Of a DNA stretch of 64,000 nucleotides, positions 1 to 53,169 are shown piece after piece; the first letter of the stretch is position 1, and every line of letters begins with the position of its first letter. The DNA lies in NCBI GenBank assembly GCA_027021195.1, contig JALUUW010000003.1:4843-68842 (forward strand), read 5' to 3'. The translations under genes and the position numbers were made by a program. Below the pieces are notes generated by a model. The model saw only the letters and a list, made by a program, of their open reading frames with translations. It made no database searches and was not told the origin of the DNA. This DNA comes from Candidatus Pacearchaeota archaeon. GTDB lineage: Archaea > Nanobdellota > Nanobdellia > Pacearchaeales > GW2011-AR1.

Positions 1-587
1 CTGAAACTATTGAACCTGGGAAGATAGAAATCGCTATCTTTAATGATTTGAAAGAGTTTACAAAAAAATATGAATTTGAAAATAATAAATCTCTTCCTTT
101 TTTTGTTGTAGGATTTGCTGGAAAGAACGGCAGAATTTTTATCTTGGATAAAAAACTTTTTCCAAAACAAGGACACAGAGAAGAAGAATTTGAAAGAGTC
201 GTTGTTCATGAATTATGCCATGTATTTATCAGGAGAATGCTACACCCCAAACATACTTTCATTTGGATAGAGGAAGGGCTATGTGAATTTTTGTCTTTTG
301 GAGATTATCCTTTAAAAATAAAAAAAATAGTGGATTTTAGAGAGATTGAAACTTCTGAAGGATGGAGAAAGCATAATGCCTATCAACAAGCAAAAGGTTT
401 TTTTAAATATTTATCTAAAAATTATGGGGATAAAAAAATAGTGGAATTTATTAAAAAAATTAAAGTTACTTCTGAGAGAAAGGCATTTAAAGAGGTGTTT
501 GGAAAAGAAATAAATGAAATCCAAGAAAAGTTCTTTAACACCTTGAAAAATGAAAAAACTCTATCATCCGGGAATTCCTTGCAATGA
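1..587 (+). CDS. HExxH metallopeptidase-like protein (5' partial)
   Basis: The frame is open from nt 3 to the window edge, and the track start at 48 is a TTG. Motifs VVHELCHVF and downstream IEEGLCE fit a gluzincin-like HExxH+E. Overlaps the next gene by 38 nt. Confidence 0.5.
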   Translation, partial: ETIEPGKIEIAIFNDLKEFTKKYEFENNKSLPFFVVGFAGKNGRIFILDKKLFPKQGHREEEFERVVVHELCHVFIRRMLHPKHTFIWIEEGLCEFLSFGDYPLKIKKIVDFREIETSEGWRKHNAYQQAKGFFKYLSKNYGDKKIVEFIKKIKVTSERKAFKEVFGKEINEIQEKFFNTLKNEKTLSSGNSLQ

Positions 588-1716
588 GAATATAGTTCAA
601 AAAGATTTAGAAAAGAGTCTTATTAATTTTAGAAATAAGCGTATAGAGATTGTTGAATGTAATGAAGGGTTTGGAGTTTTTGATAAAGACTGGTTTTGGG
701 CAACAAAAGAAGAGTTAGATTCTCTTAAGAAATGCCCAGATATCTCAATAAGGTATTTTTTAGATAATGAAAAGTTCAATCATGAAGGATGGTTTTTTTA
801 TAACCCAATAGAACTTGGTATAGAATTAACAAGAGAATGTAATCAGCTGTGTATTCATTGTTGGAATGAATCTTCTTCAAGGGATACTAAAATGCCTTTG
901 AAGAAGGCAAAAGAAATTATTCAGGAATTTAGAAAAGGAGGAGGACAGAAAATAAAGATATCTGGTGGAGAACCATTATCATATTCTTCTTTAGATGAAT
1001 TTTTATTTTTTTCAAAAGAAGTTGGGATAAAAAAAGTAGATATGACATCTAATGGAGTGTTAATGAATAGGGAAAAAGCAAAATTTTTATCTACTCATCT
1101 AACAAATATATGTATAAGTATTCATGGTTCTAAATCAGATATACATGACGATATAACTTACAATAAAGGAAGTTTTGTAAAATCTATTAAAGCAATAGAG
1201 CATCTTCAGGAAGAAGGGTTAAACCCCATAATTAATTATACTGTTATGCAGAAAAACAAAAAGGACATTGCAGACATGATTGAATTAGGGAAAATTCTTA
1301 ATGTTAACGGGATAAAATTCAGTTGTTTAAAAAAGATTGGAAGAGCGAGAAATTTAGAGGTAATTTCTAAAGAAGAGGTAAATACATTAAGAAATTTAAT
1401 ATATACTAAATCGAAAGAGCTTGGAATTGAGTTAGAGAAGAGTGAATTGTATCCTGCAGGATATGTTCAAGGCATTAGTCAATCAAAATTTTATGGATGT
1501 AATGGATTAAGAACCCAACTATATATCTCTTCAGAAGGCAACGTTTACCCATGTAGTTTAATAAATGAAAGTATTGGAAACATTTACCAAGATTCTTTAT
1601 TTAATTTATGGAGAAGTAAAAAAGCTCAGGAATTTAGAAGATTGGATAATTGTATTAAAAATGATTGCAAAATAATTAGGGATTGTGGGAGAAAGTGTAG
1701 GGCAAGTTTGAAGTAA
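550..1716 (+). CDS. radical SAM / SPASM-domain enzyme (peptide-maturase-like)
   Basis: CNQLCIHC (CX3CX2C), SGGEPL, and a C-terminal Cys cluster: GCNG..YISSEGNVYPCS..CIKNDCKIIRDCGRKC. There is a ~95-aa N-terminal extension before the cluster motif. Confidence 0.85.
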   Translation: MKKLYHPGIPCNENIVQKDLEKSLINFRNKRIEIVECNEGFGVFDKDWFWATKEELDSLKKCPDISIRYFLDNEKFNHEGWFFYNPIELGIELTRECNQLCIHCWNESSSRDTKMPLKKAKEIIQEFRKGGGQKIKISGGEPLSYSSLDEFLFFSKEVGIKKVDMTSNGVLMNREKAKFLSTHLTNICISIHGSKSDIHDDITYNKGSFVKSIKAIEHLQEEGLNPIINYTVMQKNKKDIADMIELGKILNVNGIKFSCLKKIGRARNLEVISKEEVNTLRNLIYTKSKELGIELEKSELYPAGYVQGISQSKFYGCNGLRTQLYISSEGNVYPCSLINESIGNIYQDSLFNLWRSKKAQEFRRLDNCIKNDCKIIRDCGRKCRASLK

Positions 1717-1793
1717 CGAGGGAGAGTTAAATATAAAATATATTTTGACCATGGAAGAAAAATAGGGTATGGGAAGCTAAAAAAAGAGCAGAT

Positions 1794-2372
1794 ATGGAAG
1801 GTTATGAGAATATAAAATTTGTTAAAGCTGATATCAATTCCTTACCCTTTGACTCAGAAACGTTTGACGTTGTCATAGTAGGAAATGTCTTCTCTTTGAT
1901 AGAAAATAAAAAAATTGCATTAAAGGAATGCATGCGTGTTTCTAAAAAAAATGGATTTATTATTGTAATCCCTATGTATTACATAAAAGAACCTTCGAAG
2001 GAACTTATAAAGAGAGTTTCCAAAGCCCTTAAAGTCGACATTGCTCCTATGTATCGATCAGATTGGATAAATTTCTTCTCAATATCTGGATTAGAAATAT
2101 ATTGGTCAAAAGATTTCAAATTTGACCACATAGACAATAAAAAAATAATTTCCTTTTGTGAGGAGATTTTTAATAAAGAACATTTACGAAACTTGACTAA
2201 ATCGGCATATGAGAAACTATTTGAAGTTTATCAGAAATTTATGTTTCTATTTCGCGATAATTTATCTCATATGGGATATATCATACTTATTTTATCTAAA
2301 AGAAAGTTGTGGGAAGATCCAGAACTCTTTACATCCAGAGAAAATATCTCCCTTGGAAACTTTAGTCAATAG
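1794..2372 (+). CDS. class I SAM-methyltransferase, N-terminally truncated (motif I missing); possible pseudogene
   Basis: Starts at the post-motif-I region (KFVKADINSLPFDSETFDVVIVGNVF, KNGFIIV). No GxGxG motif is present. An in-frame TAA lies 5 codons upstream, and only 77 nt separate it from the previous gene. Confidence 0.5.
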   Translation: MEGYENIKFVKADINSLPFDSETFDVVIVGNVFSLIENKKIALKECMRVSKKNGFIIVIPMYYIKEPSKELIKRVSKALKVDIAPMYRSDWINFFSISGLEIYWSKDFKFDHIDNKKIISFCEEIFNKEHLRNLTKSAYEKLFEVYQKFMFLFRDNLSHMGYIILILSKRKLWEDPELFTSRENISLGNFSQ

Positions 2373-3862: not shown

Positions 3863-4531
3863 TTATATCTTAATTCTTTTAACATATTCTATACATTCAT
3901 TAATTAGAGGAATTATATCTGGATTATGCTTCCACGTTTCCATTACTCTCTTTCTTAATTCTTTATGTTCAGCATAGCCTTTATCTTCAACAAACCATAG
4001 ATCTCTACACTCTAAATTTAAGATTGCAGTTAAAGACTCATTAACATACTCTATTTCTCTAAACCCTAGCTGATTTCTAATTAAAGGCAAATGTGTTTTT
4101 TCCATCTGTAAATGCATTAATTCATGTCCACATGTTCTTAAATTTTGCAACAGAGGTCTTCGAATTGAGACCATGAAAGAATCCTCCTCCACATTATAAG
4201 GACATCTTCCAGCAGTTGTAATATATGCATTAAATTCATTTGAATATATTTTGTGTTTGGTAATTTTTTCTAACCTTTCAAAAAACCTGTTATTTATTTT
4301 TCCCCAAGAGTTCTGCAATGTTTCTAAAAAGATGTCTAAATGGCCTGAAGAATATAATGGTTGAATATACTGTTCAATCTCTTCCCTACATTCTTCAAAT
4401 TTTCTATTTTTCCACCTCTGTAGGACTGACCCTCTTTCTAATTCATTCTCCCATGGATGCTCGTAGTTGCTAGTTTCCCATATATTCCAAAGGTCTTTTT
4501 CCTTATCAAACTTAAAAATTACTTTTGACAT
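3863..4531 (-). CDS. HExxH-motif protein (putative Zn peptidase)
   Basis: CGHELMHLQ motif. Lies 16 nt downstream of the methyltransferase gene. Confidence 0.5.
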   Translation of the reverse strand: MSKVIFKFDKEKDLWNIWETSNYEHPWENELERGSVLQRWKNRKFEECREEIEQYIQPLYSSGHLDIFLETLQNSWGKINNRFFERLEKITKHKIYSNEFNAYITTAGRCPYNVEEDSFMVSIRRPLLQNLRTCGHELMHLQMEKTHLPLIRNQLGFREIEYVNESLTAILNLECRDLWFVEDKGYAEHKELRKRVMETWKHNPDIIPLINECIEYVKRIKI

Positions 4532-4547
4532 ATTCTTTTTTTGAAGG

Positions 4548-5072
4548 TTAAGCTTTTTGTTTATTTTTTAATAGTAATAAAATAACATTATGTTTATGGG
4601 GGGGCAAATTATCATGCTCTTCAATGGGGGTCTCATACATTCCTTCCTTCATTATTTCCCAATCAGAATATAGGTTTTTTAATTGTTTTAATGAAGGATA
4701 AAACCTATTTTGTGCATTTCTTGCCATAGGGTCTTTATCTGAAAAACAGATGATAAAAGTATGTCCTTGCTCAGAGGTATGTGTTTGTATCTTTTTTAAA
4801 ATATTTTGTGCAGTTACCTTATCTAAAAAATGCAAAACTAACGAAGCAATTATTAAGTCATATTTCTCTTTGAATTCAAAATTTGTTATATCTTCATTAA
4901 AGAATTTAAAATTTTTCTGGGAGATTTCCATAGGTCTTTTATCTACTCCAAGAACTTTTACGCCTTGTTTGGCAAATCTGAGAGATTTATGCCCTTTCCC
5001 ACAACCCAGATCCAAAACATTTTGAGGCTGTAGTTCTTTAAGATATTCTTTGACTTTATCCCTTATTATCAT
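4548..5072 (-). CDS. class I SAM-dependent methyltransferase
   Basis: VLDLGCGKGHKSLRFAKQGVKVLGVD (motif I plus acidic loop) and DLIIASLVLHFL. Confidence 0.8.
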   Translation of the reverse strand: MIIRDKVKEYLKELQPQNVLDLGCGKGHKSLRFAKQGVKVLGVDKRPMEISQKNFKFFNEDITNFEFKEKYDLIIASLVLHFLDKVTAQNILKKIQTHTSEQGHTFIICFSDKDPMARNAQNRFYPSLKQLKNLYSDWEIMKEGMYETPIEEHDNLPPHKHNVILLLLKNKQKA

Positions 5073-5108
5073 TTATTAATTCTTTAAGTTTATTTTATTT
5101 AATTCTTT

Positions 5109-6170
5109 CTAATCTTGTGAGCTTCCCTGCACATATTCTTTAAAACACATAGGGTCTTTGGCCATATAATCTCCTGTTACTGCATAAGCAATTGCCCTAC
5201 ATCCTCTGCAGTGCACCACTTTATCACAAAGAGTATTCTCCCTCATTTTATTCAAATCTCTTAAATTTTGCATTACCTTGTTCTCTAAAATTAAATTACC
5301 TATTCCGTCACTTATGCGACCTATTTTAATAGGAAGTCTTCTACAAGGATAAACAGTTCCGTCCGATAATATTGAAAGCATTCTAAATCCTGCAGAACAC
5401 CCCCAAAGATATTTATTTTGCTCCTTTGCTGTTTTTATTACTTCGTTTTCTTTTTCCAATATTTGCCAAAGAACATCAGATTGAAGGACATTAATCTTAT
5501 CTCTATATTTTTCATTTAGTCTTTCAGTTTCTTTAACCATCTCGTAGATTTCTTTAGCATTAATAAATTCAGGATCTTTAATTCCTAAGTTTGAATCTGG
5601 ATTATAAGTTTTAAAACCCACTTTTTTAGCTCCTGCTAAAATTGCATTTTGGATAACATCCTCAAACTCTTTTTTATTAGACTGCATAAGAGTCATGGCT
5701 ACTGTAACATTTAAGCCTTCTTTTGAAGCATTTCTTATCCCTTCAATTGCCATATCATATGCAAAATCTTTTCTCCTAATTTTATTATGTGTGCGCTTAG
5801 ATCCATCAAGAGAAACTTGTATTGCTTCAACTTTTTGCTCCAAAAGTTCTCTAGCTTTTTTAGGAGTAATTAATGTGCCATTAGTTAACAAATTTGTTAT
5901 AACTTTTTTCTTACAAGCATATTCTAAAATTTCAAGATGATCTTCCCTCATTAAAGGATCTCCTCCCGAAATTGCGATTCTGGGTATCATCTCCCACCTT
6001 TTTGCTGTCTCTGCTAAATCATCTATCATTGATTTTACTTCATTTAAACTCATTAAATTATCATCTTGGATGTGGTCTACATTCCCTTCGTTGTTATGAT
6101 AACAATGGGAGCATTTAAGATTACAATCATTTGTGGAATCCCCTTGAATATATAAGTGTCTTTTAGCCAT
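5109..6170 (-). CDS. radical SAM / SPASM-domain enzyme (peptide-maturase-like)
   Basis: CNLKCSHC (CX3CX2C) at residues ~16-23, SGGDPL, and a C-terminal WGCSAG..LSDGTVYPCRR..CDKVVHCRGCRA..DPMC (SPASM-type auxiliary cluster cysteines). Confidence 0.85.
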   Translation of the reverse strand: MAKRHLYIQGDSTNDCNLKCSHCYHNNEGNVDHIQDDNLMSLNEVKSMIDDLAETAKRWEMIPRIAISGGDPLMREDHLEILEYACKKKVITNLLTNGTLITPKKARELLEQKVEAIQVSLDGSKRTHNKIRRKDFAYDMAIEGIRNASKEGLNVTVAMTLMQSNKKEFEDVIQNAILAGAKKVGFKTYNPDSNLGIKDPEFINAKEIYEMVKETERLNEKYRDKINVLQSDVLWQILEKENEVIKTAKEQNKYLWGCSAGFRMLSILSDGTVYPCRRLPIKIGRISDGIGNLILENKVMQNLRDLNKMRENTLCDKVVHCRGCRAIAYAVTGDYMAKDPMCFKEYVQGSSQD

Positions 6171-6212
6171 TACAAATTAAGAGCAGTTTTTCTAAATCTA
6201 TTTGGAATTTTT

Positions 6213-6338
6213 TTATTCTAAAGAATAGACATCATCTGCGTAACATGCATCTGGACCACAAGCATCGCAAGGGTCACAGTGATAACGATCTTTCTCTTGA
6301 GACGCTTTATTAGTTATATAAGAACTAATATCTAACAT
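6213..6338 (-). CDS. 41-aa Cys/Asp-rich peptide, candidate RiPP precursor (not in ORF track)
   Basis: Hand translation gives MLDISSYITNKASQEKDRYHCDPCDACGPDACYADDVYSLE*. It has an ATG start and a TAA stop, lies 42 nt upstream of the rSAM gene on the same strand, and has a TATA-like box ~80 nt upstream. Confidence 0.5.
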   Translation of the reverse strand: MLDISSYITNKASQEKDRYHCDPCDACGPDACYADDVYSLE

Positions 6339-6416
6339 ACCCTTAAGAAAAGCTTGTTCCTCAGCAGTTCTCTCCAGTTTATTTGTTTTTGCTATAAAAA
6401 GCCAACAACCTTAATA

Positions 6417-6424
6417 TATTTAAA
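6417..6424 (-). promoter_or_regulatory. TATA-box-like element (TTTAAATA on minus strand) upstream of the peptide/rSAM operon
   Basis: The plus strand reads tatttaaa, which matches the archaeal TATA consensus TTTAWATA. It sits 79 nt upstream of the peptide ATG. Confidence 0.35.
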
Positions 6425-46244: not shown

Positions 46245-48653
46245 TTATTCTCCTTTCTCCTCTTTCTTCTTTCTGTATTCCTCCAGCCTTTCTTTGTTTG
46301 TCTCACATTCTGGATTAAAGCAGAAAGTCCATGGCCTTTTTCCTTTTCTTAGAGATATCAGCATTGGAAAATTGCATTTTTCGCAATTTTTTAAGGGAGT
46401 TGTTTTTTTTATTGTTCCGTTTGGTGGGAGAGAGTATGTTTTCGTGCATTCCGGATAGCTGTCACAGGCAATAAAATTTCTTTTAGTCTTTTTTGAGTAT
46501 GTTATTGCAAGGTTCCCCTTTCCGCATTCCGGACATGCGCAGAGAGTATTTTCTGCTTTTTGCTGCTCTCTTAATTTGATGTTTGCCTGCAAAAGTTCTT
46601 TTCCTATTTCTTTCTCATTTTTTTCAAACTGCTTTGCTATTTTTGTTATGGCCTCTTTTGCCTCGCTGATTATTCTCTTTTCATGCTCCATAAACCCCTC
46701 TTTTTCTTCCTGAATCTTATCCATTTCTTTTTCAAAGTGCCTTGTCAGCTCTTCATCTATTATTATTGGAGAGTATTTTTCCAGAGTTTCAATTAAAGAG
46801 ATTCCAAGCGGTGTTGCCTCTATGCTTTTCTCTTTTATGTAATTTCTTTCATAAAGAGTCTCCAGGATTGAGCTTCTTGTTGCTTTGGTTCCGAGATTTC
46901 TTTTTTCCAGTTCAGAAACAATTGATGCCGGAGAATACCTTTTAGGAGGCTGCGTTTCTTTTTCCTCTATCCTTGAGTCTGTTATTTTCACCTCCCCTTT
47001 CATGTCAGGAATTTCATTTTCTTTCATTTTAACAGGATAGATTTCCATCCATGCTTTTTTTCTGACTGATAATCCTTTTGCTGAAAATTTTAATTCATCA
47101 ACACTTGCTGTAATCTTCTTGTTGTCTATTATTGCATCTTCGCAGAAAAGAGAGAGAAATCTTTTTACAATCAGGTTGTAAATTTTTTCTTCGTCTCCTG
47201 AGAGTATTATGGAGTCATTTTGTCCTGTTGGGTATATTGAAGGGTGCGCAGGGTCTGTTTTCTTTCCTTCTACTGGCTTTTCCCTTTTTATGAGGTGTTC
47301 TGCATTATATTTTTTGGCAAGCCTTTTAAGAATCTCTCTGTATCCTATGGAATCAGGAAGCTTCTGGCTTGAAGTTCTTGGATAGGATATGAGGCCTGAA
47401 AGATAGAGGGATTGGGCTGCCCTCAGAGTGTTTGAAGGAGTAATTCCGTGAAGCTTGTATGCTTCTGTCTGAAGGGTTGTTAAATTGAAAGGCGGTGAAG
47501 GAGGGATTATCTGTTCTGTTTTTTTTGTTTCTGCAGTTGCGGTTTTTCCAATGAGATTCTCAAATTTTTTAAGTTCCTTTTTCTCAAAAATATCTTTGTT
47601 ATGCTTCAGCTCCAGGCTGTTTTTTCCGTCATTTGCTTCAATAAAAACCTGCCAGTATGGCGTTGGCTTGAATGACTGGATTTCTCTTTCTTTTTGGACT
47701 ATCAGGTTCAATGCAGGGCCCTGCACGCGCCCTATAGACATAATCCTGAATTTTCCTGTTGTTTTAATTGCATTCATCAGTGCTCTTGAAAGATTTATAC
47801 CGTAAAACCAGTCCAGATAATGCCTTGTCTCTCCTGCAATTGCCTGCCCCCAGTTCACGCTTGAGGATTTTTCCTCGTATGCTTTGTTCAGCTCTTTTTC
47901 TGTCAGTGTGGAGAATTTCATTCTTTTTGCATCCTTCTGGTTGCAGATAAATCTTACAACATTCAGCCCAATGAGCTCCCCTTCAATGTCGTAATCTGTT
48001 GCAACTGTAATGCTTCCGGCATTTTTTGCAAGTTTCAGAAGAGTGTCATGATATCTCTTTGTAAAATCATTCTTTCTAGCCATATAATTTGGGATCCAGC
48101 TTATATCAAAAACAGGAACTTCTGATCCAGGAGTGTTCTGTTTAAGAGTGAATAAATGGCCTACAGCGCATGCCACTATTATTTTTTTGCCGTCTCTCTC
48201 AACCTCATAGTATGGGACACTTCCGGAGTTTTTTTTAGTTGATTTTCCAAGTGCAGAGGATATTTTCAGGGCAGCCTGTGGCTTTTCAGTAATAATAAGC
48301 TCATATCCGTTTTTCTTTAATTCTGTTTTCGGGGGAGAGTACTTCTCCATGCTTTTTGCTTTTTTCTTTCTTGCCTGTTTCTTTTTTTTCCCGACTTTTA
48401 TTACTTTTTCAAGAGACTTTCTGTCAGGCTTGAGATACTCTTTTTCAACCGCTCCCTTCAATATCTCCTCTTTTGGAAGAGGGTCTTTTATCGGTATTTC
48501 AACAGACTTTTTTGCAAGGTCGTGCTCACTAAGAACTATTTTCTTTTCTGCTTTCTCAATTTTCTCAGTAGCATATTCAACATCACTCTTATCTACTGGG
48601 AAATAACTTTCAGCTACTTTCTCTTCATGTGTTTTTCTTGGTTTTCTTGGCAT
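46245..48653 (-). CDS. topA: type IA DNA topoisomerase (TopA/Topo III-like) with Lys-rich N-terminal extension and C-terminal Zn ribbons
   Basis: Toprim region (LIITEKPQAA...ACAVGHL...ATDYDIEGE), active-site region (GLISYPRTSS) and C-terminal CPECG...CDSYPEC...CEKC...CFNPEC. Confidence 0.85.
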   Translation of the reverse strand: MPRKPRKTHEEKVAESYFPVDKSDVEYATEKIEKAEKKIVLSEHDLAKKSVEIPIKDPLPKEEILKGAVEKEYLKPDRKSLEKVIKVGKKKKQARKKKAKSMEKYSPPKTELKKNGYELIITEKPQAALKISSALGKSTKKNSGSVPYYEVERDGKKIIVACAVGHLFTLKQNTPGSEVPVFDISWIPNYMARKNDFTKRYHDTLLKLAKNAGSITVATDYDIEGELIGLNVVRFICNQKDAKRMKFSTLTEKELNKAYEEKSSSVNWGQAIAGETRHYLDWFYGINLSRALMNAIKTTGKFRIMSIGRVQGPALNLIVQKEREIQSFKPTPYWQVFIEANDGKNSLELKHNKDIFEKKELKKFENLIGKTATAETKKTEQIIPPSPPFNLTTLQTEAYKLHGITPSNTLRAAQSLYLSGLISYPRTSSQKLPDSIGYREILKRLAKKYNAEHLIKREKPVEGKKTDPAHPSIYPTGQNDSIILSGDEEKIYNLIVKRFLSLFCEDAIIDNKKITASVDELKFSAKGLSVRKKAWMEIYPVKMKENEIPDMKGEVKITDSRIEEKETQPPKRYSPASIVSELEKRNLGTKATRSSILETLYERNYIKEKSIEATPLGISLIETLEKYSPIIIDEELTRHFEKEMDKIQEEKEGFMEHEKRIISEAKEAITKIAKQFEKNEKEIGKELLQANIKLREQQKAENTLCACPECGKGNLAITYSKKTKRNFIACDSYPECTKTYSLPPNGTIKKTTPLKNCEKCNFPMLISLRKGKRPWTFCFNPECETNKERLEEYRKKKEEKGE

Positions 48654-48703
48654 TTTCTATAAATCATATAAACATAGTGTAGAAAAAGGGTTTTTATAGG
48701 TTT

Positions 48704-49543
48704 TTAAAAAATCTTATTCATCTCCTGAAGCCTTTTTCCCGAGCCTATTGAGCTGTTGAACATTTTCCAGAATATTCTCGTCATCCACTCTGTCCATTCC
48801 CTGTTTTTGATTGTATAGAACACAAAGAGCCTTTTATTCAGCTCTTTTTCTTTTCCTGTCGGCTCTTTCATTTCCTTCATGTTAAAGAGCTTATTGTCTA
48901 TTATTGTGGCTCTTAATGGCTGTTCTCTGTGCCTTATTTCCACTAATTCTTTTCCATGCTTGAAATTTAAAGACAGCATTTTTTCTATGTTCTTCTTGCC
49001 TGCTAAATCAACCCTGCAGACGACCTTAATGCTTATTCCATTTTTCACAAGCCTGTCAAGAATATCAAAGATGTCTGTTTTTCTGTCTTTGTAATTTATA
49101 AGCGAAAGGTTTCCTGAAAAAAACAGGATTTGCTTTTTTGCGCTTAACAGGATGTCTTTAAACTCCTTTAGCCTTCCTGATTTCATCTCGCTTTCCCCCT
49201 TTTTCATCCATGCCTCCTTGTCTTTGTCCGCGACATGCTGAAAAATGTCAAATGCAGAAAAGTCCCCCTTGTTTTTGCCCTGCATTATCTGCTCCTCCAG
49301 CTTCTCCTGAAAAACAGAGTGGTTCGCCTTTTCTACTGAAGCCCAGTAAACGATTTTCAGTGCTCCGCGAGTCCCTTCCCTGAAGGTTCTTGTTGCCAGT
49401 GTTCCGAATTCTTTTTCAATTTCCTGAACATACCTGTCAGCAGTTCTCCAGTTTTTTCCCAGGTGCTTGGCTATCTCCTGTATGCTTCTTGGCTTTGAAT
49501 AGGCAAAATCCTCTATTTTTTTTATTGTTTTAGTGTCAAGCAT
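48704..49543 (-). CDS. wHTH transcriptional regulator with TrmB/PLD-like C-terminal domain
   Basis: N-terminus is KPRSIQEIAKHLGKNWRTADRYVQEIEKEFG. The C-terminal segment is LRATIIDNKLF. Confidence 0.4.
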   Translation of the reverse strand: MLDTKTIKKIEDFAYSKPRSIQEIAKHLGKNWRTADRYVQEIEKEFGTLATRTFREGTRGALKIVYWASVEKANHSVFQEKLEEQIMQGKNKGDFSAFDIFQHVADKDKEAWMKKGESEMKSGRLKEFKDILLSAKKQILFFSGNLSLINYKDRKTDIFDILDRLVKNGISIKVVCRVDLAGKKNIEKMLSLNFKHGKELVEIRHREQPLRATIIDNKLFNMKEMKEPTGKEKELNKRLFVFYTIKNREWTEWMTRIFWKMFNSSIGSGKRLQEMNKIF

Positions 49544-49648
49544 AGTGTTTCAACCATTTTGTGATATTTAAGCATTTCTACAATATACAACACTTTTGAC
49601 AAAATATGTACAGTAAAATGTATCTAATCTGCAAGTCTTTGTTAGAAT

Positions 49649-50224
49649 ATGAGAAAATACGTCTTGACAGGAGGGCCGTGCTCTGGAAAAACAACACTTA
49701 TTAATGAACTTAGAAAAAACGGCTTTTCTGTTTTAGATGAAACTGCAAGAGAGGTGTTAAGCTCTGCCCTAATCTCTGATAAGGTTATTAATAATAAAGA
49801 GAATTATGAAAAACTGGAGATTGAGATATTTCAAAGGCAGCTGAAAAAGGAAAGCAGCCTTTGCAAAAAAACCTTGCTTTATTTTCTTGACAGAGGAACT
49901 ATTGACTGCCTTGCTTATTCAGAGGTGTTTCTTGGATATGTTCCTGAAGAAATTGCAATCCACACTCATTCCGGAAGGTATGACAAAGTCTTTGCTTTAG
50001 AAAGATTGCCTTTTGTTAATGACGGAGTAAGAGTTGAGGGCACAGAAGAGGAAGCTAAAAAAATTCACGATTTTCTGATTAAGACCTATCTTGATTACGG
50101 ATATGAGCTGATACATGTTCCTGTTATGTCAGTAGAAGAAAGGATGGAATTTATTCTAAGATGCATTAAATCATGCTGTCTCAATAGATATCCTTCCCAA
50201 CAAGGATGTTTATCTGGAGATTGA
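49649..50224 (+). CDS. P-loop ATPase (AAA_28/NadR-like)
   Basis: YVLTGGPCSGKTTLINELRKNGFSVLDETAREV. The 3' end overlaps a gene remnant in another frame. Confidence 0.6.
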   Translation: MRKYVLTGGPCSGKTTLINELRKNGFSVLDETAREVLSSALISDKVINNKENYEKLEIEIFQRQLKKESSLCKKTLLYFLDRGTIDCLAYSEVFLGYVPEEIAIHTHSGRYDKVFALERLPFVNDGVRVEGTEEEAKKIHDFLIKTYLDYGYELIHVPVMSVEERMEFILRCIKSCCLNRYPSQQGCLSGD

Positions 50225-50324
50225 AGGAGACAAAAAATCAATCTTAAAGTGCCTGAGGGATTTTGGGCTGAAGCTTGAGGATATTGAAAAAAGGCCCTAT
50301 CAGGAGATAATCAAAAATGCATAA
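50160..50324 (+). pseudogene. start-less 54-codon frame resembling the C-terminus of a CYTH-domain protein
   Basis: DALNHAVSIDILPNKDVYLEIEGDKKSILKCLRDFGLKLEDIEKRPYQEIIKNA*. The hydrophobic-x-LEIEG...GL....SY.E pattern is typical of CYTH tails. There is no start codon, and the frame overlaps both neighbouring genes. Confidence 0.3.
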
Positions 50325-51624
50325 AAACATAATAAGAATAAAAAAGGAAAAGAGCAATTACCTGATTTTCAGCTCTGAAGGAATGCTCCTCTCCCTGACT
50401 CGGGAGGAATTTGAGGCTTTTGAAAAACACGGAAAAAAGAAAAAAATCAATCCTGAATATAAGGAAATACTTTCAAGGCTTGCATCTTATGGCATTCTGG
50501 AATTTGAGGATTTTAAGCCAGATGATGAAAGAAAGACTTATGACCTGTCTCTTTTAAGGCACAACTCTTCTGAGCCTCTTTATCCTGCTCCTGTTCTTGC
50601 TCATTTGTCTGTAACCAATAAATGCAATATGTCCTGCGAGTATTGCTCTGTCAGGGAACTGCACTGCTCTAATGCTGAAAAAGAACTGACAACAGAGCAA
50701 TGGAAAAAAATAATTTCCGGGCTTGCAGAATGGGGTGTTTTTCAGATAGGGTTCACAGGAGGAGAGCCGACACTGAGAAAGGATTTGCCTGAGCTTGCAA
50801 ACCATGTTCATGAAAAAGGATGCGTATTTAACCTGACAACAAACGGCTGGCTTTTAGATGAAAAGCTTGTTAGCAAGCTTGCAGAATCAGGAATGAAGCA
50901 GTGCCAGGTTTCCTTAGACTCCCACATTAAAGAGACTCATGAAAAGCTGAGGGGAAAAGGCTCTTATGAGAGAGCCATAAAATCCATAAGGCTGTTAAAG
51001 GACAAGGGAGTTGCTGTTGGAATAGACTGCGTTGTTTCTAGAAATAATATCGGCTCAATTCCTGAATTTATAAAGTGGATTGAAAAAGAAGGGATTCCTT
51101 ATCTGACTTTAATAAAGCTGAAAAAAGGGGATTTAAGCAGAGAGTATTATAATTACCTAATGCCTGATTACCATGCATATTCTAGATTGATAAAAGATAT
51201 ATGCTGCAGGGAAAAAAACAAAAACCCCAATATAACTCTTGACTGCGGAAGCGTTTCAAACCTTCAGGCAGTTGCTGATAAAAATAAATTTCATAATCTT
51301 CCTGTTGCAGGATGCCCTTTAGGCCATCATTTAATATGCATCTCTCCTTCTGGAAATATTTTCAGCTGCGCTGCCCTTCTTGATAAAAGGCTTTGTCTTG
51401 GAAATGCCTTAAAAGATGATATTAAGGAAGTCTGGGAAAACAATTCTCTTTTAAGGGAATTTAGATTAATAAAACAAAAAATCTCAGGAAAGTGCAGGAA
51501 TTGCGAAAGGCTTGACATATGCAGGGGAGGGTGCAGGGGAATTTCTTATTCAATAAACAATGGGTTGTTTGGCTCTGACTCAACATGTAAATTTCAGGAG
51601 GTGAAAAATGGAAATACGGGTTGA
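50317..51624 (+). CDS. radical SAM / SPASM-domain enzyme (peptide-maturase-like), third copy
   Basis: CNMSCEYC (CX3CX2C), TGGEPTL and a C-terminal GCPLG..ISPSGNIFSCA..CRNCERLDICRGGCRG..DSTC. The N-terminal ~100 aa look like a substrate-recognition extension. Confidence 0.85.
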   Translation: MHKNIIRIKKEKSNYLIFSSEGMLLSLTREEFEAFEKHGKKKKINPEYKEILSRLASYGILEFEDFKPDDERKTYDLSLLRHNSSEPLYPAPVLAHLSVTNKCNMSCEYCSVRELHCSNAEKELTTEQWKKIISGLAEWGVFQIGFTGGEPTLRKDLPELANHVHEKGCVFNLTTNGWLLDEKLVSKLAESGMKQCQVSLDSHIKETHEKLRGKGSYERAIKSIRLLKDKGVAVGIDCVVSRNNIGSIPEFIKWIEKEGIPYLTLIKLKKGDLSREYYNYLMPDYHAYSRLIKDICCREKNKNPNITLDCGSVSNLQAVADKNKFHNLPVAGCPLGHHLICISPSGNIFSCAALLDKRLCLGNALKDDIKEVWENNSLLREFRLIKQKISGKCRNCERLDICRGGCRGISYSINNGLFGSDSTCKFQEVKNGNTG

Positions 51625-51842
51625 CAAGCTTCAGGGCGGGCATTATGCTTTTTTAAGCGAGCTGCCTCATCTTGCAGAAAAGAGCAAACAGCTTTCTGAA
51701 AAGCTTGCTTTTGAAAAAAATGAAAAGAAGCTTATTTGAGGTGGCATGGGAAATAACAGATGGGTGCAATCTTGAGTGCATCCACTGTTACAACCCCCAA
51801 AAAAAGAAGATATTTTTTAGGCCAGTTAAAGACCTTTGTTGA
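51608..51842 (+). pseudogene. frameshifted and 3'-truncated radical SAM paralogue
   Basis: ORF a (51608-51739) has AGGAGGTGA upstream. ORF b (51720-51842) encodes MKRSLFEVAWEITDGCNLECIHCYNPQKKK.. The two frames join if one A is removed from the A7 run at 51714-51720. The sequence stops ~25 aa after the CX3CX2C motif. Confidence 0.45.
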
Positions 51843-51854
51843 ATAACCCATAAA

Positions 51855-52475
51855 TCAAATGTCAAAAATCTTCTCTTTTCTTGAGACATTAATGATTTTT
51901 GTTTTTCCCATTTTTTCCTCAATCCCTTCAGCCTCATGAATGTGCGCGCTGATTAAGATGTCTGGCTTGAATTCTTTTACTGCCTTTTTTATTGCCTTGC
52001 TTCCTTTAAATCCTGAGAATTCCGCCTTGCTTCCATTGTGATGCATATGGGTTACCATAATTTTTTTATTGACTTTTTTAAGGGCATTGTTTCCTTTTTT
52101 CAGAGCATCAAAAATCTCTTTTTCTGTTGTATTAAACTCCAGTGCCCCTCCTGCCCCGAAAATACCCACTTTGTCTTTTACAAAAGAGTATCCATGAATG
52201 TTCTTGGTGTTTGGATACATTTCTGCAAGAAAATCCACTGTAGCAATAGATTCGTGGTTTCCATGAAGCAATAAAACCGGTTTTTCTGCTTTTGTGAAAG
52301 GGCCTACAATGTTTTTTACTGAGCTTTCTGCCAGAGTCAGGTCTCCTGCAAGTATTACTAAGTCAACATTTTCTTTTTTTGCCTTTTCAGCCAGCTTTTT
52401 CACTAGCCCAGTGTCTCCATGAATGTCTCCAACTGCAAGTATTCTTGTTTTTTTTCTGTTTCCTGGATGTTTCAT
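51855..52475 (-). CDS. calcineurin-like metallophosphoesterase
   Basis: ILAVGDIHGD, LAGDLT, GNHE, and GGA...HMH/SAHIHE. Confidence 0.8.
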   Translation of the reverse strand: MKHPGNRKKTRILAVGDIHGDTGLVKKLAEKAKKENVDLVILAGDLTLAESSVKNIVGPFTKAEKPVLLLHGNHESIATVDFLAEMYPNTKNIHGYSFVKDKVGIFGAGGALEFNTTEKEIFDALKKGNNALKKVNKKIMVTHMHHNGSKAEFSGFKGSKAIKKAVKEFKPDILISAHIHEAEGIEEKMGKTKIINVSRKEKIFDI

Positions 52476-52584
52476 GATATTAAATTAAAATTTTGATTAA
52501 TAAAGATTATTAATTTATTTTTTGGCTATTTTATAGAAGGTATTATTTTTTAAATGTTTTGGCAGATATATCCTTCCCAAAAGA

Positions 52585-52633
52585 TTTAAAAGGACTATAC
52601 TGTCTGGATATATACATTAAACTATACATATCC
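52585..52633 (+). promoter_or_regulatory. TATA-like box (52585-52592) plus imperfect inverted repeat GGATATATACAT-taaa-CTATACATATCC (52606-52633)
   Basis: Read directly from the sequence. The arms match 9/12. The element lies between the TATA box and the ATG of the wHTH gene. A third GGATATAT copy is at 52566-52573 on the minus strand. Confidence 0.35.
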
Positions 52634-52643
52634 GAGTATCAAA

Positions 52644-52910
52644 ATGAAAGACAATTTTGATATCTTTTTCAGGAGAAAGCCAGCTCTGATGCTGGTATCT
52701 CTTAAAAAGAATACAAGGATGAGGTATGGTAGTGTTTTGGCTAAGGAAGTTGACTGCACCTACAGCCATGCAGTGAAGATTTTGCAGACACTTGAAGACC
52801 TTAAGTTAGTTGTTTTTGAAAAAAAGGGGCGGATAAAAATTATACAGCTAACGAAGAAGGGAAGAGAAGTTGCAGATGCAATTGAAAACATTCAAAAGCT
52901 GATTAAATGA
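52644..52910 (+). CDS. small winged-helix transcriptional regulator
   Basis: RYGSVLAKEVDCTYSHAVKILQTLEDLKLVVFEKKGRIKIIQLTKKGREVA. Confidence 0.55.
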   Translation: MKDNFDIFFRRKPALMLVSLKKNTRMRYGSVLAKEVDCTYSHAVKILQTLEDLKLVVFEKKGRIKIIQLTKKGREVADAIENIQKLIK

Positions 52911-53052
52911 AAGCTTTTGGCTACCACGCCCCTGAAAGAGCCTTATGGGCAGAAGACAATAGCAGGCAGTATTTAGTTTAGGATTAGCCTGGATGCTTTA
53001 AGATATTTTTTATCCTATGCAATGCTTTTCTGTGTTTGGGATTTTATAAGCA

Positions 53053-53127
53053 TGGCCCTGGAGGGATTTGAACCCCCGACACCCAGATTAAGAGTCTGGT
53101 GCTCTAACCAGGCTGAGCTACAGAGCC
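53053..53127 (-). tRNA. tRNA-Lys (anticodon CUU)
   Basis: The reverse complement is GGCTCTGTAGCTCAGCCTGGTTAGAGCACCAGACTCTTAATCTGGGTGTCGGGGGTTCAAATCCCTCCAGGGCCA. It has a 7-bp acceptor stem, anticodon loop CTCTTAA and T-loop GGTTCAAAT. No CCA is encoded. Confidence 0.85.
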
Positions 53128-53150
53128 ATAATTCAATATCAGAGAAGAAG

Positions 53151-53158
53151 TTTAAAAA
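53151..53158 (-). promoter_or_regulatory. TATA-like box (TTTTTAAA on minus strand) ~24 nt upstream of the tRNA 5' end
   Basis: Position and sequence fit an archaeal tRNA promoter. Confidence 0.4.
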
Positions 53159-53169
53159 TCTTTACTAGC

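What the first reader, a model, noticed from the sequence alone, without database searches (positions are those of the whole stretch)
50317..51842. Orphan third rSAM/SPASM gene followed by a frameshifted, truncated fourth copy; four rSAM/SPASM loci in 64 kb of a reduced genome
Seen in sequence: an intact 435-aa SPASM enzyme (CNMSCEYC) is followed by two short ORFs. AGGAGGTGA precedes the first. The second encodes ..EITDGCNLECIHCY.. The two join into one frame if one A is removed from the A7 run at 51714-51720. The sequence then ends ~25 aa after the cluster motif, abutting the convergent phosphoesterase gene. I could find no Cys-rich small ORF next to this pair.

Inference: this is a decaying tandem maturase locus.

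Speculative alternative: with several SPASM enzymes and a very large Cys-rich exported proteome in the same window, some of these enzymes might modify the surface proteins, for example with thioether or formylglycine-type modifications, rather than small peptides.
Basis: partly seen in the sequence, partly recalled or inferred. Interest (0 to 1): 0.5.

Follow-up and report, generated by a model that had tools for sequence, protein, structure and literature searches.

The report
Hidden peptide gene; partner maturase deleted
The "orphan" radical-SAM enzyme has its own small, highly conserved substrate-peptide gene hidden in the first short ORF, and the second short ORF is the 29-codon stump of an obligate partner enzyme lost by deletion, not by a frameshift.

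Summary

- **Enzyme A (50317..51624):** intact. It has a peptide-binding domain (RRE), a radical-SAM core and a SPASM domain. It belongs to a tight family found mostly in DPANN archaea, and also in MAGs labelled CPR and gut Clostridia.
- **43-aa ORF (51608..51739):** not the N-terminus of a frameshifted gene. Its first 22 residues (MEIRVDKLQGGHYAFLSELPHL) match a small-peptide family encoded beside A in every ortholog locus with enough flank. The core is under strong purifying selection (pN/pS about 0.1). It has no Pfam or NCBIfam model and no literature hit. It is the likely precursor peptide, and AGGAGGTGA is its ribosome-binding site.
- **Partner gene B:** starts at ATG 51720, as all 16 full-length orthologs do (M-x-R-x-L-x-E-V-A-W-E). 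No frameshift in the A7 run is needed. Homology stops after 29 codons. About 860 nt are missing, up to the convergent phosphoesterase gene. An independent assembly gives the same sequence.
- **Partner presence elsewhere:** 54 of 55 related loci keep an intact second rSAM/SPASM gene next to A. The one exception is cut by a contig end.

"Decaying locus" is therefore right in essence. The cassette itself appears undescribed. A second deletion remnant (CYTH-like) lies just upstream of A.

The parts
50317..51624 (+). Enzyme A: intact 435-aa maturase with an RRE-like N-terminal domain (about aa 1-66), a radical-SAM core (CNMSCEYC, C103/C107/C110) and a SPASM domain (C310, C333, C351, C393, C396, C402, C406, C424).
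   Evidence: Pfam Radical_SAM, Fer4_12 and SPASM. About 80 full-length orthologs at 40-70% identity. All 48 columns invariant across the 52 aligned family members, the window's own A included, are occupied in A, including all 11 conserved Cys listed here. AF2 model pLDDT 90.9; its N-terminus folds as three strands followed by two helices. Best PDB fold match is SuiB over the full length, TM 0.69.
51596..51604 (+). AGGAGGTGA, a Shine-Dalgarno-like site for the peptide gene. It lies inside A's C-terminal codons (..QEVKNG..).
   Evidence: GGAGGT followed by 5-6 nt and ATG is invariant in the window and five close relatives. The QEVKNG-type C-terminus recurs in A orthologs.
51608..51739 (+). Putative precursor peptide gene (43 aa). 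The conserved part is codons 1-22 (51608..51673), MEIRVDKLQGGHYAFLSELPHL. The 21-aa tail is not conserved and results from loss of a stop codon (TAA in L004 and L006 is GAA here).
   Evidence: A peptide HMM hits all 44 first-round sources (31-58 bits) and 10 of 13 metagenome loci; the other three are contig-truncated. There is no hit above 10.6 bits in 1.03 Mb of loci carrying more distant rSAM/SPASM genes. pN/pS is 0.11-0.16 with pS about 0.87. No Pfam or NCBIfam match.
51720..51842 (+). Stub of partner maturase B. It has an intact ATG, and 29 codons (51720..51806) are homologous to the N-terminus plus CxxxCxxC motif of 316-344-aa rSAM/SPASM orthologs. The next 11 codons and the stop have no homology.
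   Evidence: 75% identity to residues 3-30 of L002 B. Profile positions 1-28/33 only, 44-45 bits. DNA similarity ends at about 51808. No other B fragment exists in the window.
51807..51854 (.). Deletion junction. About 860 nt or more of B (residues about 30 to the end, including the whole SPASM domain) are missing between here and the stop of the convergent gene.
   Evidence: In L002 and L004, B ends overlapping the 3' end of the Metallophos gene. No frame here matches a B C-terminus.
50160..50324 (+). Second remnant: the C-terminal 51-54 codons of a CYTH-like gene, with no in-frame ATG, GTG or TTG. Its stop overlaps A's ATG (ATGCATAA).
   Evidence: 41% identity over 51 aa to residues 171-220 of the 224-aa ORF at the same position in L006. 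That ORF weakly matches CyaB/CYTH.
48704..49543 (-). Conserved, divergently transcribed 279-aa protein with an N-terminal HTH. It is a putative regulator of the cassette (inferred).
   Evidence: Present upstream of A in about 20 archaeal loci and in L082. 26 columns are invariant. Only weak HTH_11 and PLDc_2 hits.
51855..52475 (-). Convergent calcineurin-like phosphoesterase. It is intact and marks the right edge of the deletion. It is a syntenic neighbour in close relatives only.
   Evidence: Pfam Metallophos 1e-18. Same position in L002 to L005.

Best explanation
The region is a three-gene peptide-modification cassette of the RiPP type, with one enzyme deleted.

Normal layout in relatives:
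- Enzyme A (RRE, radical-SAM, SPASM).
- A peptide gene of about 22 codons that starts a few bases before A's stop and has its own GGAGGT site.
- A second rSAM/SPASM enzyme. It is type B directly downstream, or type C or D directly upstream.

Inferred mechanism:
- A's N-terminal RRE-like domain binds the peptide's N-terminal strand (M-x-[IVL]-[RIV]-[VAI]-D-K-[LF]).
- The two radical-SAM enzymes then install modifications in the invariant G-H-x-x-[FY]-[FLY]-x-x-L-P segment, most plausibly C-C or C-N/O cross-links.
- The two enzymes may act one after the other or as a complex.

State in this genome:
- The peptide core and A are intact.
- B has lost everything after codon 29 through a deletion of about 860 nt that stops just short of the convergent phosphoesterase gene.
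- A CYTH-like gene just upstream of A has also been cut down to its last ~50 codons.
- The module is therefore most likely inactive or only half-functional, caught early in decay.

Shown: gene identities, conservation, co-occurrence, the deletion, and the absence of a frameshift.
Inferred: that the peptide is the substrate, the kind of chemistry, and the loss of function.
For: - **B start and extent.** All 16 full-length orthologs begin M-x-R-x-L-x-E-V-A-[WYF]-E, as the window does at 51720. Homology covers profile positions 1-28 only. The DNA alignment loses similarity at about 51808.
- **Synteny.** The order HTH, A, peptide, B, Metallophos is seen in L002, L003 and L004.
- **Peptide is a real gene.** It is found in 44 of 44 and 10 of 13 ortholog sources. 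It is absent from 1.03 Mb of control loci. pN/pS is 0.11-0.16. The SD-like site is invariant.
- **Partner is needed.** 54 of 55 related loci have at least one intact partner rSAM/SPASM adjacent to A. The exception, L018, ends 164 nt after A.
- **A modifies peptides.** The best fold match is full-length SuiB, including its RRE. The nearest solved sequences are PqqE, SuiB, anSME, SkfB and CteB.
- **Precedent.** TrnC and TrnD of thuricin CD are an obligate rSAM pair in which neither enzyme works alone (PMC12093266).
- **Not an assembly artefact.** The independent assembly L001 is identical here.
- **The deletion looks recent.** The stub is 73-75% identical to intact B N-termini, which is as similar as intact orthologs are to each other over those codons.
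Against: - There is no biochemical or expression evidence. "Substrate" is inferred from co-occurrence and the RRE-like domain.
- No protease or exporter is conserved in the cassette.
- Only 64 kb of the genome was examined, so a partner gene could lie elsewhere.
- Two other rSAM/SPASM genes in the window (550..1716; 5109..6170, minus strand) are 25-29% identical to B, C and D. They cannot be strictly excluded as substitutes, although B, C and D are only about 30% identical to each other.
- A and the peptide show no sign of decay, which would also fit continued function.
- L001 may derive from the same or a related sample, so the two assemblies are not fully independent evidence.
Confidence: 0.75

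Rival explanations
1. The two short ORFs are one gene split by a +1 error or slippage in the A7 run, and enzyme A is an orphan without a precursor.
For: Removing one A does fuse the frames. Homopolymer runs are error-prone.
Against: Orthologous B genes start at the Met that immediately follows the run, and none has an N-terminal extension. The upstream ORF's first 22 aa form an independent, conserved peptide that ends with its own stop before B in relatives. The peptide also occurs in loci where no gene follows it, such as L005 and L084. An independent assembly has the same A7 run.
Confidence: 0.03
2. The cassette is still functional. Either A alone performs a sufficient modification of the peptide, or it works with a partner encoded in trans (win_388, win_353, or a gene outside the window).
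For: A retains all invariant residues and the peptide core is identical to that of L002, which has an intact B. Partner type has been swapped during evolution: L005 lacks B but has a type C gene upstream. Two more rSAM/SPASM genes lie in the window.
Against: No other locus, out of 54 informative ones, has A without an adjacent partner. win_388 and win_353 are not orthologs of B, C or D (25-29% identity). win_353 belongs to its own cassette with a different, Cys-rich peptide.
Confidence: 0.2
3. Assembly or binning artefact. The real genome has a full-length B, and the contig is chimeric or collapsed at 51807..51854.
For: The source is a metagenome-assembled sequence. A- and T-rich runs flank the junction.
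Against: Two assemblies that differ by 5 SNPs agree base for base across the junction. Synteny continues normally on both sides, with the same Metallophos, TFS and signal peptidase neighbours. A loss of about 860 nt is not a homopolymer error.
Confidence: 0.04
4. A acts on proteins or small molecules rather than on the small peptide. Options are Cys-rich surface proteins in an anSME-like way, or a nucleotide-derived metabolite suggested by the neighbouring AAA_28, CYTH, Nudix/NrtR and phosphoesterase genes. In this reading the small ORF would be a regulatory or accessory peptide.
For: anSME is among the closest solved relatives. Nucleotide-metabolism genes recur near the pair. No protease or exporter is present.
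Against: anSME lacks an RRE, whereas A has one and aligns over its full length with SuiB. The nucleotide-related neighbours vary between loci, whereas the peptide and the second rSAM are constant. No curated cutoff for anSME, AhbC/D, NirJ or MoaA is reached.
Confidence: 0.08

Closest known systems
Streptide system SuiA/SuiB (KxxxW rSAM/SPASM maturase with N-terminal RRE)
   Same: Same three-domain architecture: RRE, radical-SAM core and a SPASM domain with two auxiliary clusters. It is the best structural match over the full length (TM 0.69). Both have a small precursor encoded next to the enzyme.
   Different: About 19% sequence identity. The NCBIfam KxxxW model scores 87 bits against a cutoff of 500. 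The peptide has no K-x3-W motif. The streptide system needs one rSAM enzyme, whereas a second is always present here.
PQQ (PqqA/PqqD/PqqE) and mycofactocin (MftA/MftB/MftC) cofactor pathways
   Same: PqqE is the best PDB sequence hit, and MftC and PqqE are among the top NCBIfam hits. The precursor is very short (22-24 aa) and its sequence is strongly conserved across distant taxa, like PqqA and MftA and unlike typical hypervariable bacteriocin cores. It contains His, Tyr and Glu.
   Different: Scores are well below the cutoffs (150 vs 381; 162 vs 265). The RRE is fused rather than a separate PqqD or MftB protein. There is no E-x3-Y motif or C-terminal VY. No pqqB/C/F or mftD/E/F genes are present. 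A second rSAM enzyme takes their place.
Thuricin CD TrnC/TrnD (two synergistic rSAM/SPASM enzymes)
   Same: Two adjacent rSAM/SPASM maturases that are always inherited together. In thuricin CD, neither enzyme modifies the precursor alone (PMC12093266). This gives a rationale for expecting that loss of B disables the cassette.
   Different: Thuricin CD is a sactipeptide with Cys-to-C-alpha thioether links and two precursors. The window's peptide core has no Cys, and there is one precursor.
Dynobactin/darobactin and triceptide-type cross-linking rSAM/SPASM enzymes (DynA, DarE, 3-residue cyclophane synthases)
   Same: These are rSAM/SPASM enzymes that cross-link aromatic or His side chains in short cores. 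The invariant G-H-x-x-[FY]-[FLY] motif here would suit such chemistry (my inference from general knowledge).
   Different: DynA scores 96 bits against a cutoff of 450. The motif differs. The chemistry here is entirely untested.

Membership tests
Radical SAM / SPASM peptide maturase (generic class) | CxxxCxxC radical-SAM cluster motif in a Radical_SAM domain | tested here: met
   CNMSCEYC at aa 103-110. PF04055 E = 4e-28.
Radical SAM / SPASM peptide maturase (generic class) | C-terminal SPASM domain with the Cys set for two auxiliary 4Fe-4S clusters | tested here: met
   PF13186 E = 2e-8. Eight further invariant Cys: 310, 333, 351, 393, 396, 402, 406, 424.
Radical SAM / SPASM peptide maturase (generic class) | RiPP recognition element (PqqD-like) fused or adjacent | tested here: inconclusive
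   The model shows three strands followed by two helices at aa 5-57, and the full-length alignment to SuiB includes SuiB's RRE. No Pfam PqqD hit was obtained, and the domain was not compared on its own.
Radical SAM / SPASM peptide maturase (generic class) | Co-encoded precursor peptide | tested here: met
   A conserved peptide lies next to A in every locus with enough flank and is absent from control loci.
Radical SAM / SPASM peptide maturase (generic class) | Enzyme modifies the peptide | not testable with these tools
   Needs co-expression and mass spectrometry.
PqqE (TIGR02109) | Score at or above the curated cutoff; PqqA with E-x3-Y; pqqBCD neighbours | tested here: not met
   150 bits against a cutoff of 381. 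The peptide lacks E-x3-Y. No pqq genes appear in the neighbourhoods.
Mycofactocin maturase MftC (TIGR03962) | Score at or above the curated cutoff; precursor ending in ..GVY; MftB, D, E and F present | tested here: not met
   162 bits against a cutoff of 265. Peptide C-termini vary and none ends in VY.
Anaerobic sulfatase-maturating enzyme (anSME) | No RRE; acts on the C/S-x-P-x-R motif of sulfatases; TIGR03942 cutoff reached | tested here: not met
   A carries an N-terminal extra domain and a dedicated peptide. TIGR03942 is not among A's best 25 families. Sulfatase genes were not searched for.
Sactipeptide / ranthipeptide maturases | Cys residues in the core peptide as thioether donors | tested here: not met
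   The window peptide has no Cys, and Cys is not conserved across the family. AlbA, SkfB, PapB, StsB and SCIFF models are all far below their cutoffs.
   Sequence upstream of ATG 51720 has no counterpart in any B ortholog. It belongs to a different, conserved peptide gene.
Deletion-truncated pseudogene (partner B) | Syntenic position, significant homology to one end of a full-length ortholog, the rest absent | tested here: met
   Same position as B in L002, L004 and L006. Profile positions 1-28 of 321 only, E = 1.5e-12. No other fragment in the window.

The most novel reading that the evidence does not exclude
The G-H-x-x-[FY]-[FLY]-x-x-L-P peptide and its obligate pair of rSAM/SPASM enzymes may form an undescribed class of modified peptide. 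Because the roughly 20-residue sequence is conserved from DPANN archaea to MAGs labelled CPR and gut Clostridia, and the cassette has no protease or exporter, the product may be a peptide-derived cofactor or signal in the manner of PQQ or mycofactocin, rather than a bacteriocin. The window would then show a natural enzyme-B knockout of that pathway.
Probability: 0.4. Interest if true: 0.7.

Novelty: new member of a known kind. Interest (0 to 1): 0.5.

Why it matters
- **For this genome.** The region turns from "an orphan enzyme plus a frameshifted copy" into a defined three-gene cassette caught in the act of being dismantled by deletions. This is a concrete snapshot of gene loss in a reduced DPANN genome.
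- **More generally.** The comparison exposes a small peptide gene that gene callers almost never annotate. Only two database entries were found. It is strictly linked to a specific pair of radical-SAM enzymes in MAGs labelled as archaea and as bacteria.
- **What can be tested.** The result gives a testable substrate for about 80 unannotated "radical SAM protein" genes. It also gives a simple experimental system: peptide, A and B from an intact relative.
- **A caution for annotation.** Short ORFs next to maturases should be compared across relatives before being read as gene fragments.

Tried and rejected
- **Frameshift join at the A7 run.** Rejected after comparing 16 B orthologs.
- **Homology continuing past the A8 run (51801..51808) in another frame.** "KKEDIF*AS*RPLL" looked faintly like "KRRDISTKQAKRTLL". 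Neither the profile search of all three frames nor the DNA alignment supports it.
- **Relocated B sequence.** Looked for the rest of B elsewhere in the window and found none.
- **win_388 or win_353 as the missing partner.** In an NJ tree built without outgroups, both fall outside the B, C and D clades, which is inconclusive. They share only 25-29% identity with the partners.
- **Curated families.** No NCBIfam cutoff is reached for A, B, C or D. Nothing in Pfam or NCBIfam matches the peptide.
- **PADLOC.** Only generic radical-SAM similarity to pVip. A defence-system reading was not pursued.
- **Literature.** Five peptide motif strings and several keyword sets (SPASM/DPANN, RiPP/DPANN/radical SAM, Woesearchaeota/precursor peptide) turned up nothing describing this system.
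- **A nucleotide or small-molecule pathway.** Suggested by the AAA_28, CYTH, Nudix/NrtR and Metallophos neighbours. These neighbours are not constant across loci, so they were treated as context only.
- **Structure of the 279-aa HTH protein.** The single-sequence model is unusable, with pLDDT 40. Profile searches against PDB and Pfam gave only weak HTH and PLD-like hints.
- **Rfam.** Only the tRNA-Lys was found in 48000..53500.
Full report
**What is in the sequence.**
- The window is AT-rich (about 37% GC). It carries archaeal markers: TFS/RPB9-type zinc ribbon, Nre and topoisomerase I.
- The closest relatives of its genes are labelled Woesearchaeota, Nanoarchaeota or DPANN.
- At 50317..51624 there is an intact 435-aa ORF with CNMSCEYC and Pfam matches to Radical_SAM, Fer4_12 and SPASM.
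- Two short ORFs follow: 51608..51739 (43 aa) and 51672..51842 (containing EITDGCNLECIHCY).
- A convergent calcineurin-like phosphoesterase gene ends at 51855.
- A six-frame scan finds four CxxxCxxC loci of the rSAM type: 550..1716, 5109..6170 (minus strand), 50317..51624 and the fragment.
- The raw observation is therefore correct.

**The fragment is a deletion stub, not a frameshifted gene.**
- Contigs encoding the closest homologues of the 435-aa protein ("A") show the order topoisomerase I (-), a 278-281-aa protein (-), [AAA_28], A (+), a 316-318-aa rSAM/SPASM gene "B" (+), phosphoesterase (-).
- B begins MNRNLFEVAWEVTDRCNLNCIHCYNPRKRR in L002 and MERRLVEIAWEITDTCNYNCIHCYNPRKRK in L004.
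- The window reads MKRSLFEVAWEITDGCNLECIHCYNPQKKK from ATG 51720..51722.
- All 16 B orthologs that I extracted start at this Met.
- The last A of the "A7 run" is the A of that start codon, so no frameshift is needed or indicated.
- A profile of the 16 orthologs matches the window only over positions 1-28 (44-45 bits, E = 1.5e-12). No other frame and no other place in the window holds more of B.
- DNA similarity to four relatives stops at about 51808.
- About 287 or more codons (about 860 nt), including the whole SPASM domain, are missing. Only about 45 nt separate the end of homology from the convergent gene's stop.
- An independent Logan assembly (L001) differs from the window by 5 SNPs in 13.6 kb and is identical here. 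An assembly or homopolymer artefact is therefore unlikely.

**The first short ORF is a conserved peptide gene.**
- I clustered all small ORFs within ±3.5 kb of A across 43 related loci. One family was present in every locus.
- In close relatives it is 22-23 aa long, for example MKIRVDKLQGGHYAFLSELPQL. It starts a few bases before A's stop.
- The window's 43-aa ORF begins MEIRVDKLQGGHYAFLSELPHL.
- An HMM of the 22 residues hits all 44 sources at 31-58 bits. It also hits 10 of 13 further metagenome loci, and the three misses are contigs cut at the relevant side.
- In 112 control loci (1.03 Mb) carrying more distant rSAM/SPASM genes, the best hit is 10.6 bits.
- Codon comparisons give pS of about 0.87 and pN of 0.09-0.13, so pN/pS is 0.11-0.16. 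The peptide sequence, not the DNA, is what is conserved.
- GGAGGT followed by 5-6 nt and ATG is invariant in the six closest sequences.
- The motif is [MV]-x-[IVL]-[RIVL]-[VAI]-[DST]-x-[LFM]-x-x-G-H-[Y/L/M/I]-x-[FY]-[FLY]-x-x-L-P. G-H, the aromatic pair and L are invariant.
- Tails after the motif range from 0 to about 40 aa and are not conserved.
- In the window, the stop codon used by L004 and L006 (TAA) is GAA, which adds 21 residues.
- The peptide has no Pfam or NCBIfam model. It has only two entries in the 5.8-billion-protein collection. Its motif strings do not occur in the searchable literature in any relevant paper.

**What A is.**
- A belongs to a sharply bounded family. About 80 full-length proteins score 344 bits or more, and the next full-length relatives score about 150 bits. 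The proteins scoring between are fragments of 260-270 aa.
- 48 columns are invariant, including three rSAM Cys and eight further Cys that fit a full SPASM domain.
- No curated NCBIfam family is reached. The best are WgkB (163 bits, cutoff 650), MftC (162, cutoff 265) and PqqE (150, cutoff 381).
- The nearest solved sequences are PqqE, SuiB, anSME, SkfB and CteB.
- The AlphaFold model has pLDDT 90.9. Its N-terminal domain has three strands followed by two helices.
- The best fold match is SuiB over the full length, including SuiB's RRE (TM 0.69).
- This supports a peptide-binding maturase. The RRE assignment is structural inference, because no PqqD-type Pfam hit was obtained.

**A never occurs without a partner.**
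- Across 55 related loci, A is flanked by a second rSAM/SPASM gene in 54. The partner is type B (316-344 aa, downstream), type C (about 330-352 aa) or type D (about 416-421 aa with its own N-terminal extension, upstream). Two loci have two partners.
- The remaining locus, L018, ends 164 nt after A.
- The loci come from Woesearchaeota/Nanoarchaeota MAGs. Some MAGs are labelled Portnoybacteria, Clostridia, Eubacteriales or Ca. Scatovivens, including a 507-kb contig.
- The window and its twin L001 are the only case with the partner reduced to a stub.
- The thuricin CD enzymes TrnC and TrnD are a documented rSAM pair in which neither works alone (PMC12093266).
- My best reading is that loss of B has disabled, or at least halved, the pathway.
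- The stub is as similar to intact B N-termini (73-75%) as those are to each other (about 70%). This suggests the deletion is recent, and it would explain why A and the peptide are still pristine.
- The alternatives cannot be excluded with 64 kb of sequence. These are that A suffices alone, or that a partner acts in trans. I give them about 0.2.

**Surroundings.**
- A 279-aa protein with an N-terminal HTH is divergently transcribed upstream of A in about 20 archaeal loci and in L082. It is probably the cassette's regulator. Evidence for its fold is weak.
- In some type D loci, a Nudix/NrtR-type regulator takes this place.
- Immediately upstream of A lies an open frame without any ATG, GTG or TTG (50160..50324). 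Its stop overlaps A's ATG.
- This frame is 41% identical over 51 aa to the C-terminus of a 224-aa CYTH-like ORF that occupies the same position in L006; L018 carries a 31%-identical full-length homologue of that ORF at the same position.
- A second gene next to A has therefore also been truncated by deletion. The AAA_28 ORF now reads into the remnant, giving it a 17-aa unaligned tail.

**The other rSAM/SPASM genes.**
- They are not copies of A or B (22-29% identity).
- The 353-aa enzyme (5109..6170, minus strand) belongs to a large DPANN family.
- It sits in its own conserved cassette: a small Cys-rich peptide, the rSAM/SPASM gene and a TehB-like methyltransferase.
- The window's version of that peptide is 6213..6338 (minus strand), ..YHCDPCDACGPDACY...
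- "Four SPASM loci" therefore means at least two or three different peptide-modification systems, not a tandemly amplified family.
- The idea that these enzymes decorate Cys-rich surface proteins is not supported for A or for the 353-aa enzyme. The 388-aa enzyme was not resolved.

**Verdict.**
- The pseudogene itself is an ordinary product of genome reduction.
- The unexpected result is the unannotated peptide family, strictly coupled to a pair of radical-SAM enzymes.
- I file it as a new member of the known kind "rSAM/SPASM-modified peptide cassette". Its chemistry and role are unknown.

Noticed in passing
window 50160..50324 (+): An open frame with no start codon. It is 41% identical over 51 aa to the C-terminus of a 224-aa CYTH-like gene found full-length between AAA_28 and A in L006 (a 31%-identical homologue sits there in L018), and its stop overlaps A's ATG. 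It is a second deletion remnant flanking A. The AAA_28 ORF (49649..50224) reads into it, giving that ORF a 17-aa unaligned tail.
   Followed up: partly
window 3863..6420 (-): The 353-aa rSAM/SPASM gene (5109..6170) sits in a conserved cassette. It is preceded by a small Cys-rich peptide (6213..6338, ..DRYHCDPCDACGPDACYADD..) and followed by a TehB-like methyltransferase (4548..5072) and a 222-aa ORF. The same order occurs in L085 to L088. The conserved leader motif (..TAEEQAFLKGM) lies in frame upstream of the window's ATG but has no canonical start codon, so the peptide may be N-terminally shortened here.
   Followed up: partly
window 48..2372 (+): The 388-aa rSAM/SPASM gene (550..1716) has an N-terminal extension of about 85 aa. 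It overlaps a 179-aa peptidase-MA-like ORF (48..587) and is followed by a methyltransferase fragment (1794..2372). No family, peptide or context was established.
   Followed up: no
L079 5289..5948, L080 64..723, L084 6020..6721: In type D loci, a Nudix plus winged-helix (NrtR-like) regulator directly precedes the rSAM pair. AAA_28 (NadR-kinase-like), CYTH, Nudix and phosphoesterase genes recur near the cassette in other loci. A link to nucleotide or ADP-ribose signalling is possible but unexplained.
   Followed up: partly
L021 to L037, L079 to L084, L093 to L099: Full-length orthologs of A, with the peptide variant MVKLIISAMACGHYCYYSRLPKR and a type D partner, occur in MAGs labelled Clostridia, Eubacteriales, Ca. 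Scatovivens (gut) and Portnoybacteria. This suggests transfer of the cassette between DPANN archaea and bacteria, or mislabelled bins.
   Followed up: partly
L026 about 2903 and about 7296; L031 384; L099 103; L015 1135; L082 6655: L026 carries a second, divergent peptide copy (..TGHCCCFSGLPRR) about 4 kb upstream of the first. In L015, L031, L082 and L099 the peptide gene lies upstream of the enzyme genes rather than after A. L031 and L099 have three rSAM/SPASM genes in a row.
   Followed up: no
window 48704..49543 (-): The conserved 279-aa protein has invariant FSGN, R177 and H205-x3-P-x-R-x4-D motifs behind its HTH. It may be a degenerate PLD-like ligand-binding domain, as in TrmB-type regulators. 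Only weak Pfam hints were found, and the single-sequence AF2 model failed (pLDDT 40).
   Followed up: partly
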